Shown: one piece after another, positions 43,176-48,439 of the stretch | How the letters are laid out: each line of letters opens with the position of its first letter | How positions within the stretch are numbered: the first letter of the stretch is position 1 | Source of the DNA: Eubacteriales bacterium | Lineage (GTDB): Bacteria > Bacillota > Clostridia > Oscillospirales > CAG-272 | Direction of reading: 5' to 3' | Length of the DNA stretch: 64,000 nucleotides | Assembly: GCA_045638685.1 (NCBI GenBank) | Contig: JAZUBT010000035.1 | Coordinates: forward strand, 1,788-65,787 | The notes under the pieces: model-generated | What the model saw: the letters and a program-made list of their open reading frames with translations, nothing else | What the model was told of the DNA's origin: nothing | The model's database searches: none | Made by a program: the position numbers and the translations under genes

Positions 43176-44498
43176 ATGGCAAATAACCGTACCCCTACTC
43201 ATTCCGCAAGACACTGTATTTTTTGCGGAAAAAACGAAGCTCACGTAGGCTTTCTTATACCGTCTCCCACGGGGCTTTATATATGTAATAACTGTATCGA
43301 GACCTGCAATGAAATTATAGGAGAGGTAGAGATAAGCGAAAACATTTCCGGTCTTACCTACGAGACTCTTCCCAAGCCGCAAGCTATAAAAAAAATACTT
43401 GATGATTACGTAATAGGACAGGACAACGCTAAAAAGGCGCTTTCCGTTGCCGTATATAATCATTATAAGAGAATTTTGCAAAGTCCGGGAACGGCTCTTG
43501 GCAGCAGAAAAAGAGGAGCGCAAAAGAAGAGCTCCGACGAGGTGGAGATACAAAAGAGTAACGTTCTTTTGCTTGGACCTACCGGCGTAGGAAAAACCTA
43601 TCTTGCGGAAACTCTTGCAAAAACCCTTAAGGTTCCTTTTGCGATAGCGGACGCTACTACGCTTACCGAGGCAGGATACGTTGGAGAGGACGTCGAGAAC
43701 ATTCTCTTAAGACTTATTCAGGCTGCGGATTACAACGTAGAGCTTGCTGAAATGGGAATTATATATATTGATCAAATAGACAAGATTTCAACACGCTCGG
43801 ACAACCGTTCTATAACGAGAGACGTTTCGCGCGAGGGTGTTCAGCAGGCGCTTCTTAAAATCCTTGAGGGAACGGTGGCAAACGTTCCACCGCAGGGCGG
43901 AAGAAAGCACCCGAATCAGGAGTTTATAAGAATAAACACCGAAAACATACTGTTTATCTGCGGCGGAGCATTTGATACCATACAAGATATAATAGAAAAC
44001 CGCAAGGGAAACTCGGCTATTGGATTTAACAGTACAATTATGACAAAATCCGAAAAGCTTTCAAATTCTCCGTATAAGGACGTAACTCCGCACGACGTTG
44101 TAAAGTTTGGTCTTATTCCGGAGCTTGTAGGACGTCTTCCGATAATCGTCAGCCTTGACAGTCTTGATAACGAGGCGCTCATAAGAATATTAAACGAGCC
44201 TAAAAACTCGCTTGTAAAGCAGTATAAAAAGCTCTTTAGCTTTGATAACGCGGAGCTTGAGTTTACCGACGGCGCGCTTGCCGCGATTTCCGAAAAGGCT
44301 ATTGACAGAAACACAGGCGCAAGAGGACTTCGGGCTATTTTAGAGGAAACCATGCTTGATATTATGTATGAAATTCCCTCAAGAACCGACGTTGAAAAGG
44401 TTATTATAACCGATGAGACGGTCAAGAACAAAAAGGCGCCAAAGCTTGTATTAAAGGCAGAAAGCGAGTCAGAGGACAGCGAAGAAAAAATCGGATAG
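43176..44498 (+). CDS. clpX: ClpX ATPase (Walker B reads DQ; see findings)
   Basis: C4 zinc finger, [25 protein letters not shown] loop, TGARGLR. Confidence 0.93.
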
Positions 44499-44499
44499 A

Positions 44500-44542
44500 T
44501 ATAAAAAAGAACTAAGCAGTAAAACGCTTAGTCCTTTTTTAT
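44500..44542. terminator. Bidirectional terminator after clpX
   Basis: AAAAAAGAACTAAGC...GCTTAGTCCTTTTTT. Confidence 0.75.
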
Positions 44543-44554
44543 TTATAAGTTATT

Positions 44555-45472
44555 TTAGTTTTCGTTTTTGTTTGTTTCGTCATTGGTTTCGTTTGCGGCT
44601 AAGTCTGACGGAGCTGAATTTTCCTCCGAGGTGTTTTCGCTTTCGGTTAAAAATACGGGGCCTTCGTTTTGCTCAAGGAGAACCGGAATAAACTGACTTG
44701 CTATTCTGCCTTTACCGCGTCTTTTGATATAGAAAAATCCTATTACGCTGAAAACGACGGCGCCGACAAAATTAACGAACATATCTTTTATTGTGTCGGA
44801 GAGGCCTATATCAAGATACCCGTTTTCGATAACGGCGATTTTACCGCCGGCGTATTCTATTGTGGTTTTGCTTATATCCGTTAAAAGCTCTTTGTTTATC
44901 GGCGATGCCACAGACATAAAGGAGGTAACTACGCGATCCTTTTGCATATCGGTCATAAGAAGCAGGTCGGCAGAAAATTCAAAAAACTCCCAAAGGACTC
45001 CTATTGTCATCGAAAAGCAGAACGCGGTAATTGCGACGTATATGGGGGACATAGTGAATTTTATCCTCGGATTTTGGTTAATTATATCTATAAGACAAAA
45101 TCCGAAGGCGGCAAATATAAAGCCGTTGGTGGTGTGGAGCATTGTATCCCAGAACGCGTATTTTTGATAGAAGCCACCTATTTCTCCGAATATCTCGGCG
45201 CAGAAAATAAATATAAATGCAAGCGTTTCCAAAACCGTCGGTAGCTCGAGCTTAAAGTTTTTTTCGACAAACGGCGGTATAAGAAAGAGAATAAGGCAAA
45301 GTCCCGCTGTAAAAAGGCTTTCGTACCGTTTATCTACTATACAGCGAATCATAACCAGAATTACGGCGATTCTTAAAACGACGTAAACGGCAAAAGCAAC
45401 CTTGTTCGTTTTTATCTGGTCAATAAGAGAGGTATAATATTTGATCGGAGAGGGATTTTTTCTTTTACTCAT
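44555..45472 (-). CDS. Conserved hypothetical membrane protein
   Basis: Multiple TM segments, WDTMLHT..G, WEFFEF, DTIKDM.VN; start ATG 45472 with GGAGG RBS and TTGACT-17-TATAAT promoter at 45515-45543. Confidence 0.8.
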   Translation of the reverse strand: MSKRKNPSPIKYYTSLIDQIKTNKVAFAVYVVLRIAVILVMIRCIVDKRYESLFTAGLCLILFLIPPFVEKNFKLELPTVLETLAFIFIFCAEIFGEIGGFYQKYAFWDTMLHTTNGFIFAAFGFCLIDIINQNPRIKFTMSPIYVAITAFCFSMTIGVLWEFFEFSADLLLMTDMQKDRVVTSFMSVASPINKELLTDISKTTIEYAGGKIAVIENGYLDIGLSDTIKDMFVNFVGAVVFSVIGFFYIKRRGKGRIASQFIPVLLEQNEGPVFLTESENTSEENSAPSDLAANETNDETNKNEN

Positions 45473-45610
45473 TTTGTTTTCCTTTCCTCCTTTATTATTC
45501 GGGTTTATACCTTTATTATACGCCTTGGATTTCTTTAAGTCAATAAACTTAATATGTCGAAAAAGAAAATTAATACTCTTTTCTTGTTCGAGGTTTTGTA
45601 GCATAACGAA

Positions 45611-45840
45611 CGGCGGCGCACGAAATTTTCCCGTGCTCCTAAGCTTGCGGCTCCCTCGGCATCATTTCCGTTACGGAAATGATGCCGCTTTTTTAAAAAG
45701 TAATTCCTCGGGAATTACAGAAAACACGGATGTTTTCGCGGCAAGACCGGTATTTTAAAAAGCGGACGCGGTTAACGTTTGGTTAACCGCGTCCGAGGGA
45801 GCCGTAAGCTTTGGAGCTTCCGCAGAACTTCCCGCCGCCG
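45611..45840. other. Highly structured intergenic element (candidate ncRNA or ssDNA structure) with a perfect four-way junction
   Basis: Nested inverted repeats: 8-bp outer stem, 22-bp stem, two 13-bp hairpins, 11-bp stem closing further small hairpins. Confidence 0.7.
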
Positions 45841-45940
45841 AAGAAAAAATACGCACAAAAAAGGATATACCTTCGTTAACCGAAAATATATCCCTTTAAT
45901 TGTTTTTTTGTTTTGAATATTTAAAACTTAAAGTCTAAAA

Positions 45941-46159
45941 TTAAACTATAAAGCGAACGATGCTTCCGCTGATGTCCTCGTCGGAAACACAGTATATATT
46001 TTCCCACTCCATTTTTGCAAGAATAGCTCCGAGCTGGGATTTTGCGCATATCTGCTGATGCTTGTCATCGCTCAAAAATACCTGTCCGGGGTGGGAGGAT
46101 ACGATAGCAACGAAATCCGTTACGTCAGTCATGGTGTTAAGCTCTATACGTACTTTCAT
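45941..46159 (-). CDS. HPr-like small protein lacking the His15 motif
   Basis: DFV..VS, AKS.LG (Ser46 region); GGAG RBS. Confidence 0.7.
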   Translation of the reverse strand: MKVRIELNTMTDVTDFVAIVSSHPGQVFLSDDKHQQICAKSQLGAILAKMEWENIYCVSDEDISGSIVRFIV

Positions 46160-46229
46160 CTGGTTTTCTCCTTACATAAATAATTTTATAATAAAACCGT
46201 AGCGTAAAATTTAATTTTTACGTTGCTGC

Positions 46230-46997
46230 TTACTGAGCAGCCTCAACGATAACGGTGAAATCGGGCGCTTTAAGAGACGCGCCGCCGATAAGTCCTCCGT
46301 CAACGTTGACCTTTCCGAGAAGCTCAGATGCATTCTTTGCATTCATCGAGCCTCCGTACTGTATAACGGTTGCCTCTGCAACGTCATTTCCGTAAAGCTT
46401 TGAAAGAGTTGCTCTTATAGTTCCGCAGGTTTCGTCTGCCTGCTCGGGAGTTGCGGTAAGACCTGTTCCAATACCCCATACAGGCTCGTAAGCGATTATG
46501 ACGTTTTTCATATCCTCGGCGCTGATGCCTGCAAGGTCAAGCTTTGTCTGCATGGAAACGACCTCGTCGGTAATTCCTGCAAGTCTTTCCTCTTTAACCT
46601 CACCTACGCAGAGTATAACCTTAAGCCCTGCGTTAAGAGCAGCCTTCGTGCGAAGGTTAACGGTCTCGTCGGTTTCGGCAAAGTACTGACGGCGCTCGGA
46701 GTGTCCGATTATTACGTACTCAACGCCGCATTCGGTAAGCATTTTAGCGGAGATTTCTCCGGTGTAAGCGCCGCTTTCCGCAAAGTGTACGTTCTCTGCG
46801 CCAACCTTGATGTTGGTGCCCTTTGTAGCCTCAACAGCTACGGAAATGTCAACGTAAGGAACGCATATAACGATATCGCAGCCGTTTTTACCGGCAACCA
46901 TGGGCTTGAGCTCCTCGATAAGCGCCTTAGCCTCAGCGGGAGTTTTGTTCATTTTCCAGTTACCGGCTATAACAACCGGTCTTTTTGCTTTATTCAT
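46230..46997 (-). CDS. tpiA: Triosephosphate isomerase
   Basis: AGNWKMN, GAYTGEIS, IGHSERR, AYEPVW, YGGS, GGASL. Confidence 0.97.
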   Translation of the reverse strand: MNKAKRPVVIAGNWKMNKTPAEAKALIEELKPMVAGKNGCDIVICVPYVDISVAVEATKGTNIKVGAENVHFAESGAYTGEISAKMLTECGVEYVIIGHSERRQYFAETDETVNLRTKAALNAGLKVILCVGEVKEERLAGITDEVVSMQTKLDLAGISAEDMKNVIIAYEPVWGIGTGLTATPEQADETCGTIRATLSKLYGNDVAEATVIQYGGSMNAKNASELLGKVNVDGGLIGGASLKAPDFTVIVEAAQ

Positions 46998-47143
46998 TTT
47001 GTTCTCCAATCTGCTGCCGTGACGACAGCAACTTAAAATTTTCAGCTTTTTTCTATGTGTTTTGCCGCGAAAGGTATTCGGCATTTAAAAGATAAGGCGT
47101 GAAAACAGTTTTTTCAAAGCTTTCACGCCTCTCGTTTTAATAA

Positions 47144-48439
47144 TTATTTGTCATTAAGACAAGCAATACCGGGAAGCTCAATTCCTTCAAGGAATTCAAG
47201 CGATGCGCCGCCTCCGGTGGAAATGTGAGTCATCTTGTCAGCATATCCGAGCTTTTCAACTGCAGCAGCACTGTCGCCACCACCTATGATAGAAATAGCG
47301 CCGCTTTCCGCAACGGCGGAAGCAACCGACTCGGTGCCGGCCGCAAAGTTCTTCCACTCGGAAACACCCATCGGTCCGTTCCATACAACAGTGCCTGCGC
47401 CCTTGATAGCGTTAGCAAAGAGTTTACGCGTCTCGGGACCTATGTCAAGTCCCATCCAGCCGTCGGGAATGTTGTCGGAGTTTACCTCCATATACTCGGT
47501 GTTCTCATCGTAAGCCTTACCGACTCTGTTGTCAACGGGGAGAAGGAAATTAACGCCCTTGGCCTTAGCCTTAGCTATCATCTCGTTTGCAAGGTCTATC
47601 TTGTCGGTCTCGCAAAGCGAGGTGCCTACGCTGTGTCCCTGTGCCGCAAAGAAGGTGTACGCCATACCGCCGCCGATTATGAGAGTGTCAACCTTTTCGA
47701 GAAGGTTATTGATAACGCCTATCTTGTCGGAAACCTTTGCTCCGCCGAGAATTGCAACGAAGGGACGTGCGGGATCTGCAAGAGCCTTACCCATTATCGA
47801 AATCTCTTTTCCGATAAGGTATCCGCAAACTGCGGGGAGATAGTCGGCAACTCCCGCGGTGGAAGCATGGGCTCTGTGAGCGGAGCCGAAAGCATCGTTT
47901 ACGTAAACGTCAGCGTAATCAGCAAGCTCTTTTGCGAAATCAGCGCCGTTCTTAGTCTCTCTTGCGTCAAAGCGAACGTTCTCTATAAGAACAGCCTCGC
48001 CTTCCTTAAGAGCTCCAATCTTAGCCTTTGCGTCGGGGCCTATAATGTCCTCAGCGAAGGTAACCTTTCCGCCGAGAAGCTCGTTAAGTCTGTCAGCAAC
48101 GGGCTTAAGAGTAAATTTCTTCTTGTCGTCAAGAGCCTTCTTGAGGAAATCTGCCTTAGCAGCTGTCTGCTCAGCCTCGGGAAGAGCCTCAACCTTCTGC
48201 TTTTCCTTCTTGGTGAGACCGAAGCCCTCGCTAAAGATGCTGTGGGGCTTGCCCATATGAGAGCAGAGGATAACCTTAGCGCCCTTGTCAAGGAGATACT
48301 TAATGGTGGGGAGCGCGCCTACGATTCTCTTGTCGGAGGTGATAACTCCATCCTTAAGCGGTACGTTGAAATCGCAGCGAACAAGAACCTTCTTGCCGGC
48401 AACGTCAATGTCCTCAATTGTTTTTTTGTTGTACATCAT
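47144..48439 (-). CDS. pgk: Phosphoglycerate kinase with an about 35-aa insertion
   Basis: [43 protein letters not shown]. Confidence 0.97.

What the first reader, a model, noticed from the sequence alone, without database searches (positions are those of the whole stretch)
45611..45840. Unannotated 230-nt element folding into a perfect four-way junction
Seen: outer stem CGGCGGCG 45611-45618 / CGCCGCCG 45833-45840; long stem 45635-45657 / 45795-45817 (22 bp, one mismatch, one G-U on the + strand); hairpin 45658-45686 (13 bp); stem 45687-45698 / 45753-45763 enclosing hairpins GTAATTCC/GGAATTAC and GAAAACA/TGTTTTC; hairpin 45764-45794 (13 bp). The four helices meet with no unpaired base and every crossover falls at a C|G step (CGG/CCG), allowing short branch migration. 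It lies between the putative terminator of pgk-tpiA-HPr-like and the promoter of the next gene, so it is neither that terminator nor an obvious 5' leader. I see no hallmarks of tRNA, SRP, 6S, RNase P, tmRNA or common riboswitches. Inference: a novel structured ncRNA, or, given the nearly pure Watson-Crick pairing, an ssDNA/cruciform element such as a non-autonomous mobile palindrome.
Basis: partly seen in the sequence, partly recalled or inferred. Interest (0 to 1): 0.75.

Follow-up and report, generated by a model that had tools for sequence, protein, structure and literature searches.

The report
Single-copy nested four-way-junction palindromic element
A 230-base stretch between two gene units folds into a cross-within-a-cross of near-perfect hairpins that evolution has kept intact in two sister species, but it matches no known RNA family and its job, most likely blocking stray transcription, is unproven.

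Summary
Window 45611-45840 folds on either strand at about -130 kcal/mol (z -13 and -12). It is the most stable of 3924 non-coding 240-nt windows in this genome. It lies on the gene strand (minus) between a real terminator (45859-45897) and an 11/12 sigma-70 promoter (45543-45515).

It matches no Rfam family and is single-copy. The only homologue found is one sister species (G005), at the same locus. The next relative (G001) has terminator then promoter with nothing between them.

Between the two species, paired columns are 92% identical, unpaired ones 46%, and four-fold codon sites 65%. Six pairs changed on both sides and still pair (0.21 expected). So the helices are under selection and the loops are not.

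The fold is equally good on both strands and wobble pairs are rare. That argues against a one-strand RNA.

Best reading (about 0.35): a lineage-specific branched palindromic insertion, REP/BIME- or SPRITE-like in design but single-copy, kept as a two-way transcription barrier.

Rivals: a DNA-level (ssDNA or cruciform) signal, a one-strand ncRNA, or a neutral relic. No expression data could be obtained. Interest is moderate.

The parts
45611..45840 (.). Whole element, 230 nt: two nested four-way junctions, equally stable on both strands
   Evidence: fold, z -13.1 and -12.0; rank 1 of 3924 non-coding windows; orthologue in G005
45611..45618 (.). Outer stem, 5' half (CGGCGGCG); pairs with 45833-45840
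   Evidence: Invariant in both species (8 of 8 pairs never vary). Sequence conservation between G000 and G005 starts and stops at these octamers
45833..45840 (.). Outer stem, 3' half (CGCCGCCG)
45620..45634 (.). Small hairpin in the 16-nt strand of the internal loop (ACG/CGT, 3 bp)
   Evidence: helix 2, one G-C to C-G double change
45635..45657 (.). Long stem, 5' arm; pairs with 45795-45817
   Evidence: One T-A to G-C double change (alignment columns 49/200). The middle AAGCTT/AAGCTT part is degenerate in G005
45795..45817 (.). Long stem, 3' arm
45658..45686 (.). Hairpin A (13 bp). On the plus strand it is followed by CTTTTTT, so it is terminator-like in G000
   Evidence: plus-strand terminator-like site 45657-45687. 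In G005 the third pair is broken (C-G to T.C) and the T run is only 3
45687..45763 (.). Inner four-way junction: A/T stem (45687-45698 with 45753-45763) around c1 45700-45718, c2 45720-45737 and c3 45739-45749
   Evidence: c2 has a C-G to T-A double change. On the minus strand c1 plus its T run is terminator-like in both species
45764..45794 (.). Hairpin B (13 bp). On the minus strand it is followed by CTTTTT, so it is terminator-like in G000
   Evidence: minus-strand site 45795-45763; one A-T to G-C double change; not flagged as terminator-like in G005
45859..45897 (-). Intrinsic terminator T1 of the pgk-tpiA-72aa unit: 17-bp hairpin followed by UUUUUUGUG
   Evidence: fold -24 kcal/mol, z -4.6. 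Conserved in G005 and, in similar form, in G001
45515..45543 (-). Sigma-70-type promoter of the downstream gene (TTGACT, 17 nt, TATAAT; 11 of 12)
   Evidence: Also present in G005 (TTGATT, 17 nt, TATAAT) and G001
44555..45472 (-). Downstream gene: 305-aa membrane protein (P0001, 306 aa as stored with one residue ahead of the Met), no known family
   Evidence: translation. The GGAGG ribosome-binding site ahead of the ATG at 45472 is seen. No Pfam or NCBIfam match
45941..46159 (-). Upstream gene: 72-aa protein (P0002), no known family, last gene after pgk (47144-48439) and tpiA (46230-47084)

Best explanation
The element is a lineage-specific, single-copy, branched palindromic insertion. It entered the spacer between the terminator of the pgk-tpiA-72aa unit and the promoter of the next gene in the common ancestor of two sister species. 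Since then it has been held by selection that acts on its helices and treats both strands alike. In design it is REP/BIME- or SPRITE/Correia-like: stacked palindromic units flanked by T/A runs. The most likely mechanism (inferred, not shown) is a two-way transcription barrier or insulator. RNA polymerase entering from either side meets very stable GC-rich hairpins followed by U runs. On the minus strand these are hairpin B and c1. On the plus strand they are hairpin A or c3. This would keep read-through from the strongly expressed glycolytic unit, and antisense transcription from the other side, out of the neighbouring promoter region. Shown: the structure, its position, the selection on pairing, the strand symmetry, single copy, and the presence/absence pattern. 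Inferred: origin by insertion, and the barrier function.
For: 1. Position. The element lies between terminator T1 and an 11/12 promoter, and all flanking genes are on the minus strand.
2. Terminator-like sites inside the element. G000 has one on the plus strand and two on the minus strand (4 sites in the 901-nt region against 1.4 +/- 1.3 in shuffles). G005 has one on each strand.
3. Selection on helices only. Paired columns are 151 of 164 identical, unpaired 33 of 71, hairpin loops 16 of 33, and four-fold sites of five flanking genes 417 of 642. Loop lengths also differ between the species.
4. Compensation. Six pairs changed on both sides and still pair, against 0.21 expected; 0 of 100000 random placements reach 6. 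Slid-partner controls give 0-1.
5. Strand symmetry. Consensus folds are -111.05 (plus) and -113.45 (minus), 82 pairs each, with only 1-3 G.U pairs. G000 folds slightly better on plus and G005 on minus. Five Watson-Crick to Watson-Crick double changes stand against one Watson-Crick to G.U change. That is what a structure needed on both strands predicts.
6. Gain by insertion. Present in G000 and G005 and in 0 of the other 11 genus genomes. G001 has T1, then 58 nt, then the promoter; G002, G010 and G011 have spacers of about 80-160 nt. G000 and G005 are closer to each other than to G001 in 5 of 5 genes.
7. Background. In a published survey of human-microbiome candidate RNAs, 250 of 3161 were palindromic and 230 of those 250 were predicted terminators (PMC8040213, passages read). 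G000 and G005 also share another large palindrome built around a bidirectional terminator, and it has two copies in G005.
Against: 1. T runs are not conserved hairpin by hairpin. Hairpin A is followed by T6 in G000 but T3 in G005, and hairpin B by T5 but T4. Neither is flagged as terminator-like in G005. What stays constant is the ability of the two T/A blocks to pair with each other.
2. A terminator needs only a local hairpin. This model does not explain why the 22-bp long stem (one clean double change) and the invariant outer stem are kept.
3. A good terminator (T1) already stands 20 nt upstream.
4. Insertion is inferred from presence and absence only. No target-site duplication and no donor copy were found anywhere.
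5. There are only two sequences, so all the statistics rest on one species pair.
6. There are no expression data.
Confidence: 0.35

Rival explanations
1. DNA-level signal. The branched fold forms in single-stranded DNA (lagging-strand template or another ssDNA intermediate), or partly as cruciforms. It would be bound or used by a protein for topology, nucleoid organisation, replication or recombination, much as REP/BIME elements are said to bind gyrase and IHF, or as ssDNA-folded sites such as integron attC or the CTX-phage attP work (these comparisons are recalled, not read here).
For: Strand symmetry and near-pure Watson-Crick pairing in both species. Wobble pairs are avoided on both strands: 1-3 of 82 pairs. 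No promoter for the element was found on either strand. Long-range stems are conserved, which local terminators do not need. DNA-parameter folds are -84 to -86 kcal/mol. Earlier notes of this scan describe several branched four-way-junction palindromic repeat families that their authors read as DNA elements (unchecked leads).
Against: No partner protein is evident. There is no Y1/RAYT transposase in G000, G005 or G001 (0 of 3) and no recombinase next to the element. Extruding 230 bp as a double cruciform is energetically demanding (general knowledge). Functional single-copy chromosomal ssDNA structures are rare. GC skew shows no replication landmark here.
Confidence: 0.25
2. A one-strand structured RNA. 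It could be a stand-alone small RNA, for example read on the plus strand and ending at T1, which has T-rich sequence on both sides. Or it could be a structured part of a read-through pgk-operon transcript that stabilises or processes it.
For: A conserved global fold with compensatory changes is the classic signature of structured RNA. The element is GC-rich (50%) in an AT-rich spacer. T1 is flanked by A/T runs on both sides. Two or three G.U pairs lie on the plus strand in the long stem.
Against: No sigma-70-like promoter on either strand immediately upstream. The 24 nt upstream on the plus strand are not conserved. No conserved unpaired nucleotides (33 of 71 identical, below the 65% seen at four-fold sites). 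No consistent strand preference. No Rfam match. Helices are 13-22 bp, nearly perfect, with free loops, which is unlike known riboswitches or ribozymes (general knowledge).
Confidence: 0.2
3. A functionless relic of a mobile or replication-generated palindrome. Its arms would stay matched by intramolecular template switching (quasi-palindrome correction) rather than by selection.
For: Narrow distribution: 2 of 13 genus genomes. The spacer downstream of the 72-aa gene also holds unrelated insertions in G001 and G006. Some decay is seen in G005: a broken pair in hairpin A, a mismatch in the A/T stem, and a degenerate middle of the long stem.
Against: Arm-to-arm correction alone should let pairs change at about the neutral rate, roughly a third or more of pairs at this divergence (my own estimate). 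Only 6 of 82 pairs changed, while unpaired positions diverged to 46% identity. Hairpins A and B are different sequences, so the element is not a simple duplicated and inverted palindrome.
Confidence: 0.08

Closest known systems
REP / BIME mosaic elements of Enterobacteria and Pseudomonas
   Same: Extragenic and placed between transcription units. Built of several GC-rich palindromic units with linker motifs. Strand-symmetric. Often sit just after operon ends.
   Different: REP/BIME elements occur in tens to hundreds of copies and go with RAYT (Y1) transposases. Here there is one copy per genome and no Y1_Tnp gene in 3 of 3 genomes searched. REP units are simple hairpins in tandem, not a closing stem around three branches nested twice.
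Terminator-like interspersed repeats and MITEs of Gram-positive and other bacteria: SPRITE, RUP and BOX (pneumococcus), Correia (Neisseria), ERIC
   Same: Size of 100-250 bp. Terminal inverted repeats. Fold into long hairpins when transcribed. Carry terminator-like hairpins. Presence or absence differs between related genomes.
   Different: Those are multi-copy and their copies are kept similar by recent spread. This element is single-copy, orthologous in two species, and its helices show purifying selection. No target-site duplication was seen.
Bidirectional intrinsic terminators, and the 'palindromic candidate structured RNAs' of human microbiomes (PMC8040213; passages read)
   Same: [quoted passage not shown] GC-rich hairpins flanked by A and T runs. 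Located at the end of a transcription unit.
   Different: Ordinary bidirectional terminators are one hairpin of 20-40 nt. This element is 230 nt with seven helices, two four-way junctions, and long-range stems that termination does not need. The examples described in the passages read are 80-132 bp.
Branched four-way-junction palindromic intergenic repeats noted earlier in this scan in uncultured gut Clostridia and termite-gut Verrucomicrobia (e1-4909427, e1-5145011, e1-2365878, e1-2722943; AI notes, unchecked)
   Same: A closing stem around exactly three hairpins. Near-perfect junctions. The fold rather than the loops is conserved. One note reports copies that sit one inside another. Not in Rfam.
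   Different: Those are 78-109 nt and multi-copy. This one is 230 nt and single-copy, and no such repeat family was found in this genome. No look-alike sequence is in the scan's index.
Single-strand-DNA folded sites: AAV inverted terminal repeat (T-shaped hairpin), CTX-phage attP forked hairpin, integron attC, ssoA origins of rolling-circle plasmids (all recalled)
   Same: A branched hairpin formed by one DNA strand with almost pure Watson-Crick pairing. Helices rather than loops matter.
   Different: No phage, plasmid, integron or replication genes nearby. No match in phage or plasmid collections. No defining motifs were tested beyond chance level.

Membership tests
Any Rfam 15 family | Covariance-model score at or above the family's gathering threshold | tested here: not met
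   permissive E-value scan of 44000-47500 on both strands. The best match overlapping the element is RsaA at 25.7 bits against a threshold of 50 (E 0.23). Termite-leu scores 18.6 against 51.
Intrinsic (Rho-independent) terminator, bidirectional | GC-rich hairpin followed directly by a U run, on each strand | tested here: inconclusive
   G000: plus strand, hairpin A with T6; minus strand, hairpin B with T5 and c1 with T5. G005: plus strand, c3 with T5; minus strand, c1 with T6; A and B not flagged. At least one site per strand in each species, but not the same hairpins.
Intrinsic (Rho-independent) terminator, bidirectional | Transcripts actually end there | not testable with these tools
   No sequencing run was listed for this stretch.
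MITE (non-autonomous transposable palindrome) | Terminal inverted repeats | tested here: met
   8-bp perfect terminal repeat plus a 23-nt subterminal repeat, separated by non-matching 15-16-nt segments.
MITE (non-autonomous transposable palindrome) | Several copies in the genome or in related genomes | tested here: not met
   One copy in G000. One in G005. Full-length copies found in 0 of the other 11 genus genomes, 0 of 150 order genomes at E up to 0.001, and only 2 weak partial matches in 150 family genomes.
MITE (non-autonomous transposable palindrome) | Target-site duplication and an empty site in a relative | tested here: inconclusive
   G001 has terminator then promoter without the element, but the spacers are too diverged to fix the insertion point. 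No direct repeat flanks the element in G000 or G005.
REP / BIME / REPIN | High copy number of the palindromic unit | tested here: not met
   No module of the element recurs in G000 at more than 18 nt. In 400 family genomes there were only 21-37-nt matches in 10 genomes, and six inspected places showed none of the element's architecture.
REP / BIME / REPIN | RAYT / Y1 transposase in the genome | tested here: not met
   PF01797 found in 0 of 3 genomes (G000, G005, G001; 91-95% complete). The control search found it in 6 of 14 known genomes.
Retron msr-msd RNA | Reverse transcriptase gene next to the structured RNA | tested here: not met
   No RVT_1 match anywhere in G000. G005 has one on another contig. 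The neighbours are a membrane protein and a 72-aa protein.
Branched four-way-junction palindromic repeats (earlier notes of this scan) | Closing stem around three hairpins with few unpaired junction bases | tested here: met
   Met twice, nested. Outer: long stem / A / A-T stem / B with 0 unpaired bases. Inner: A-T stem / c1 / c2 / c3 with 6 unpaired bases.
Branched four-way-junction palindromic repeats (earlier notes of this scan) | Dispersed multi-copy family in the same genome | tested here: not met
   A scan of 9145 non-coding 130-nt windows of G000 for tight multibranch folds gave 35 window hits at about 32 places, mostly tRNA-like folds or unrelated sequences, and no recurring family resembling this element.

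The most novel reading that the evidence does not exclude
The element is a domesticated, self-similar (four-way junction inside a four-way junction) structural signal that acts as folded single-stranded or cruciform DNA and is selected on both strands. That would make it a single-copy, functional relative of the undescribed branched-palindrome repeats seen in uncultured gut Clostridia, and it would show that such branched DNA folds have a cellular role in topology, replication or recombination rather than being merely selfish.
Probability: 0.2. Interest if true: 0.7.

Novelty: new variant of a known kind. Interest (0 to 1): 0.42.

Why it matters
If the reading is right, this is a clean natural case of a palindromic insertion turned into a kept cis-element. 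It is single-copy, so its selection signal is not confounded by transposition. Its helices evolve about five times more slowly than its loops, and the constraint acts on both strands. That makes it a convenient test object for an open question: do the branched 'palindrome of palindromes' elements now turning up in uncultured bacteria work as RNA (terminators or insulators) or as DNA structures?

The practical reach is small. The element is known from two species only, and nothing links it to a phenotype.

Tried and rejected
**Searches for relatives or a donor copy**
- Rfam permissive scan: nothing.
- BLAST in 60 relatives: only G005 full-length; three genomes had 22-38-nt matches.
- Covariance model R1 (built):
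  - Genus: 1 of 12 genomes.
  - Family sample: 2 weak matches in 150 genomes. G019 scores 42 bits; it is two terminator-like hairpins right after an ORF, single-copy, and homology is doubtful. G069 scores 20 bits, outer stem only.
  - Order sample: 0 of 150.
- BLAST in 400 family genomes: only short matches in 10; six inspected places are unrelated.
- Genome contigs pattern scan (hairpin B plus GAGGG): 14 stretches. Thirteen are not Clostridia-type records (most are Actinomycetota, from their titles). One (L044) scores the same 293.1 bits as the G005 copy, so it adds no new sequence.
- Metagenome-contig scan with the c1-c2 pattern: 5 stretches, 0 match the model.
- Viral contigs with two patterns: 3 + 26 stretches, 0 of 29 match the model. 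The three hairpin-A hits share an identical stretch in three records and show none of the element's architecture.
- Phage collection: no match. Plasmids: one 25-nt match.

**Expression**
- No run was listed for this stretch and no RNA holder was listed.

**Ideas rejected**
- Retron: no RT in G000.
- REP/RAYT: no Y1 transposase.
- Replication landmark: GC skew follows gene strand only.
- Protein-binding duplex palindromes: the spacer lengths of c1 and of hairpin A differ between the species, which suits loops, not dimer sites.
- Coding: the conservation follows the stems, not codons.
- Strand assignment from G.U pairs or energies: no consistent signal.
- Cloverleaf repeat family in this genome: not found.

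**Other**
- Earlier-findings look-ups by place and by sequence: nothing near the element and no look-alike.

Full report
**1. The observation**

- The outer stem is 45611-45618 with 45833-45840.
- The long stem is 45635-45657 with 45795-45817. It has 21 Watson-Crick pairs, one G.T and one T.T.
- Hairpin A is 45658-45686.
- An A/T-rich stem, 45687-45698 with 45753-45763, encloses three small hairpins: c1 (45700-45718), c2 (45720-45737) and c3 (45739-45749).
- Hairpin B is 45764-45794.
- The four helices of the outer junction abut without an unpaired base, and each junction step is C|G.
- The A/T stem with c1, c2 and c3 is a second, nearly perfect four-way junction, so the element is one junction nested in another.

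The minimum-energy fold reproduces this on both strands. The plus strand gives -129.8 kcal/mol, z -13.1. The minus strand gives -128.5, z -12.0. In each case 0 of 200 shuffles fold as well.

I folded all 3924 mostly non-coding 240-nt windows of the 1.62-Mb assembly. The two windows over the element rank first and second, both by raw energy and after correction for GC.

**2. Surroundings**

All flanking genes are on the minus strand. They are pgk (47144-48439), tpiA (46230-47084) and a 72-aa protein (45941-46159), then the element, then a 305-aa membrane protein (44555-45472).

Neither small flanking protein has a Pfam or NCBIfam family, so 'HPr-like' is not supported.

Directly after the 72-aa gene lies a 17-bp hairpin followed by UUUUUUGUG (45859-45897). 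This is the operon terminator, T1. Downstream of the element is an 11/12 sigma-70 promoter, TTGACT-17-TATAAT, at 45543-45515. A GGAGG ribosome-binding site and the ATG at 45472 follow it.

The scan found no promoter-like site on either strand that would read into it.

Inside the element the same scan flags terminator-like hairpins in both directions. In G000 these are hairpin A with T6 on the plus strand, and hairpin B with T5 and c1 with T5 on the minus strand.

**3. Distribution**

- The element is single-copy in its own genome.
- Rfam 15, searched permissively, gives nothing. The best overlapping match is RsaA at 25.7 bits against a threshold of 50.
- Among 12 other species of the genus, only G005 has it, at the same locus.
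- A covariance model built from the two copies found nothing convincing elsewhere:
  - In 150 family genomes it gave two weak partial matches.
  - In 150 order genomes it gave 0 matches.
  - The G019 match (42 bits) is two tandem terminator-like hairpins directly after an ORF. It is single-copy, and I do not count it as a homologue.
- BLAST over 400 family genomes gave only 21-37-nt matches.
- Pattern scans of the species-representative genome collection, the JGI metagenome contigs and the viral contigs added no further copy. Neither did BLAST against phage and plasmid collections.

The same spacer differs in the relatives.
- G001 is the next closest species. It has the T1-like terminator, then 58 nt, then TTGACT-17-TATAAT, with no element.
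- G002, G010 and G011 have spacers of about 80-160 nt.
- G004 and G012 have the membrane-protein gene inverted.
- G006 carries a different palindrome cluster there.

G000 and G005 are closer to each other than either is to G001 in 5 of 5 genes compared. The simplest history is therefore a gain in the common ancestor of G000 and G005. Loss in G001 is not excluded. I saw no target duplication and found no donor.

**4. Selection**

The two copies align over their whole length.

| Class of position | Identical between G000 and G005 | Share |
|---|---|---|
| Paired columns of the consensus structure | 151 of 164 | 92% |
| Unpaired columns | 33 of 71 | 46% |
| Hairpin-loop columns | 16 of 33 | 48% |
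| Four-fold degenerate sites of five flanking genes | 417 of 642 | 65% |

Loops also differ in length.

Of the 13 paired columns that differ, 12 form six pairs that changed on both sides and still pair. One each lies in the small internal-loop hairpin, the A/T stem, c2 and hairpin B. Two lie in the long stem, one of them a G.U to U.G change next to an indel. Random placement of 13 substitutions gives 0.21 such pairs on average, and 0 of 100000 trials reach six. Sliding the partners by 1-3 columns gives 0-1.

There is also decay in G005.
- The third pair of hairpin A changed on both sides and is broken (C-G to T.C).
- One A/T-stem pair became A.A.
- The AAGCTT/AAGCTT middle of the long stem no longer pairs well.

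A palindrome kept matched only by arm-to-arm template switching should change pairs at roughly the neutral rate. That is my own estimate, not a computed result. Six changed pairs of 82 is far fewer. I conclude that the helices are under purifying selection and the loops and linkers are not. With two sequences this rests on a single species pair.

**5. Which strand, RNA or DNA**

Nothing picks out a strand.
- G000 folds slightly better on plus (-131.0 against -128.5). G005 folds better on minus (-132.3 against -124.6).
- Consensus folds of the alignment and of its reverse complement are -111.05 and -113.45, each with 82 pairs. G.U pairs number 1-2 on plus and 3 on minus.
- Between the species there are five Watson-Crick to Watson-Crick double changes but only one Watson-Crick to G.U change.

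In RNAs read from one strand, wobble intermediates are usually common (general knowledge). Their scarcity on both strands suggests that a mismatch on either strand is harmful. That fits a structure needed on both strands, meaning transcription from both directions or DNA itself. It counts against a one-strand ncRNA. So does the lack of conserved unpaired nucleotides.

**6. Mechanism**

The reading I favour (about 0.35) is a kept palindromic insertion that acts as a two-way transcription barrier between a strongly expressed glycolytic unit and the next promoter.
- It has the ingredients: very stable GC-rich hairpins next to T/A runs in both orientations, in both species.
- It has the position.
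- It is strand-symmetric.
- It belongs to the class that dominates published palindromic candidates. In PMC8040213, 230 of 250 palindromic candidates were predicted terminators (passages read).

The weaknesses are plain.
- The T runs after hairpins A and B are not conserved.
- T1 already stands upstream.
- Termination does not need the long stem or the invariant outer stem, yet both are kept.

That last point is the main argument for the DNA-level rival (0.25), in which the whole branched fold is what is recognised. A one-strand RNA (0.2) and a neutral relic (0.08) remain possible. No sequencing run could be found, so expression is unknown.

**7. Comparison with what is known**

In design the element is closest to REP/BIME mosaics and to terminator-like interspersed repeats such as SPRITE, Correia and ERIC (recalled). 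It fails their defining features.
- It is not multi-copy.
- No RAYT-type transposase gene is present in any of the 3 genomes searched.
- It has no visible target duplication.
- It is not a retron RNA, because G000 has no reverse transcriptase.

Earlier notes of this scan are AI notes that I did not verify. They describe several multi-copy families of 78-109-nt 'closing stem plus three hairpins' repeats in uncultured gut Clostridia and other bacteria, some nested. They also describe a palindromic repeat at the stop codons of a pgk-tpiA-gpmI operon in another genome.

These notes changed my reading towards an insertion of that general kind. I tested whether this genome has such a family and found none. 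The index holds no look-alike of the element's sequence.

The G000/G005 lineage does carry at least one other large palindrome, built around a bidirectional terminator. It has one copy in G000 and two in G005, and none was found in G001. Large palindromic insertions therefore do occur in this lineage.

Tables S1 and S3 of PMC8040213 might list this element. Supplements were closed, so I could not check.

**8. Verdict**

This is a real, strongly selected, strand-symmetric, single-copy nested four-way-junction element known from two species. It is absent from Rfam and from every collection searched. It is a new variant of the palindromic intergenic element kind, and its function is unproven. Interest is moderate. 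It is a tidy test case for RNA-level against DNA-level function of branched palindromes, but its distribution is tiny and no phenotype is attached.

Noticed in passing
window 45545-45586 (TGTCGAA at 45555-45561): A roughly 40-nt block just upstream of the -35 of the membrane-protein promoter is almost identical in G000 and G005 but not in G001. It contains TGTCGAA, which matches the Spo0A-box consensus as I recall it. The downstream gene may be under sporulation-type control.
   Followed up: no
window 44555-45604: The longest ORF (349 aa, ATG at 45604) would run over the promoter and end 7 nt from the element. The ribosome-binding site, the promoter and the conservation pattern point to the ATG at 45472 as the real start. 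An automatic annotation using the long form would hide the spacer.
   Followed up: partly
L023 (G001) 1700-2160: G001 has a 13-nt tandem duplication of the end of the 72-aa gene (TTTCATAGTTTAA twice) and about 290 nt of extra AT-rich sequence before its terminator. The spacer after this gene differs in nearly every species of the genus.
   Followed up: no
L027 (G006), first 300 nt after the 72-aa gene: A different cluster of palindromes (with a GGGGCAAAGCCCC-type hairpin and T/A-run palindromes) sits at the same position in G006. This suggests the site is a hot spot for palindromic insertions.
   Followed up: no
G000:C29:16230-16500 (L089, L094); G005:C133:17026-17227 and G005:C56:2900-3033 (L095, L096): A second large nested palindrome, about 230 nt, centred on a bidirectional terminator. 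There is one copy in G000 and two in G005 with different flanks (80-82% identity). None was found in G001. It is likely a mobile or REP-like family, and it has no Rfam match at gathering score.
   Followed up: partly
G000:C7:167981-168280 and C7:170381-170680 (L088): Two very stable unannotated structures flank a 492-aa large serine recombinase (Resolvase, Recombinase and zinc-ribbon domains) next to a tRNA gene. This is probably the edge of an integrated element.
   Followed up: partly
G000:C3:26301-26600 and C16:10541-10840 (L091, L092): Two paralogous structured regions of about 200 nt share a GCCAAACAAA...TTTGTTTGGCGAC closing stem and an AAATGCAAATTCC motif, and each is followed by a terminator. 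Neither has an Rfam match at gathering score. They are a candidate two-copy RNA or leader.
   Followed up: no
G000:C25:4861-5160 (L090): A multi-hairpin unit of about 190 nt is repeated directly, just after two tRNA genes.
   Followed up: no
G000 contigs C28, C38, C7, C25: There are small dispersed hairpin repeats: GGCAGGTAAGCACCTGC six times and GCGTCGCTAAGGC seven times, often side by side. This looks like a REP-like family, unrelated in sequence to the element.
   Followed up: no
L046-L049 (four contigs of one metagenome assembly): An AT-rich organism carries at least four copies of a small hairpin repeat, AGGTAATTCC-nnn-GGAATTACTGAAAAT, in 3' spacers ahead of terminators. It shares the c1-c2 motif used as the search pattern but does not match the element's model.
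   Followed up: partly
loci L021-L031: The 72-aa gene and the membrane-protein gene are neighbours in 8 of 11 genus loci, in two of them with the membrane-protein gene inverted. The pair of unknown-function genes may be functionally linked.
   Followed up: no
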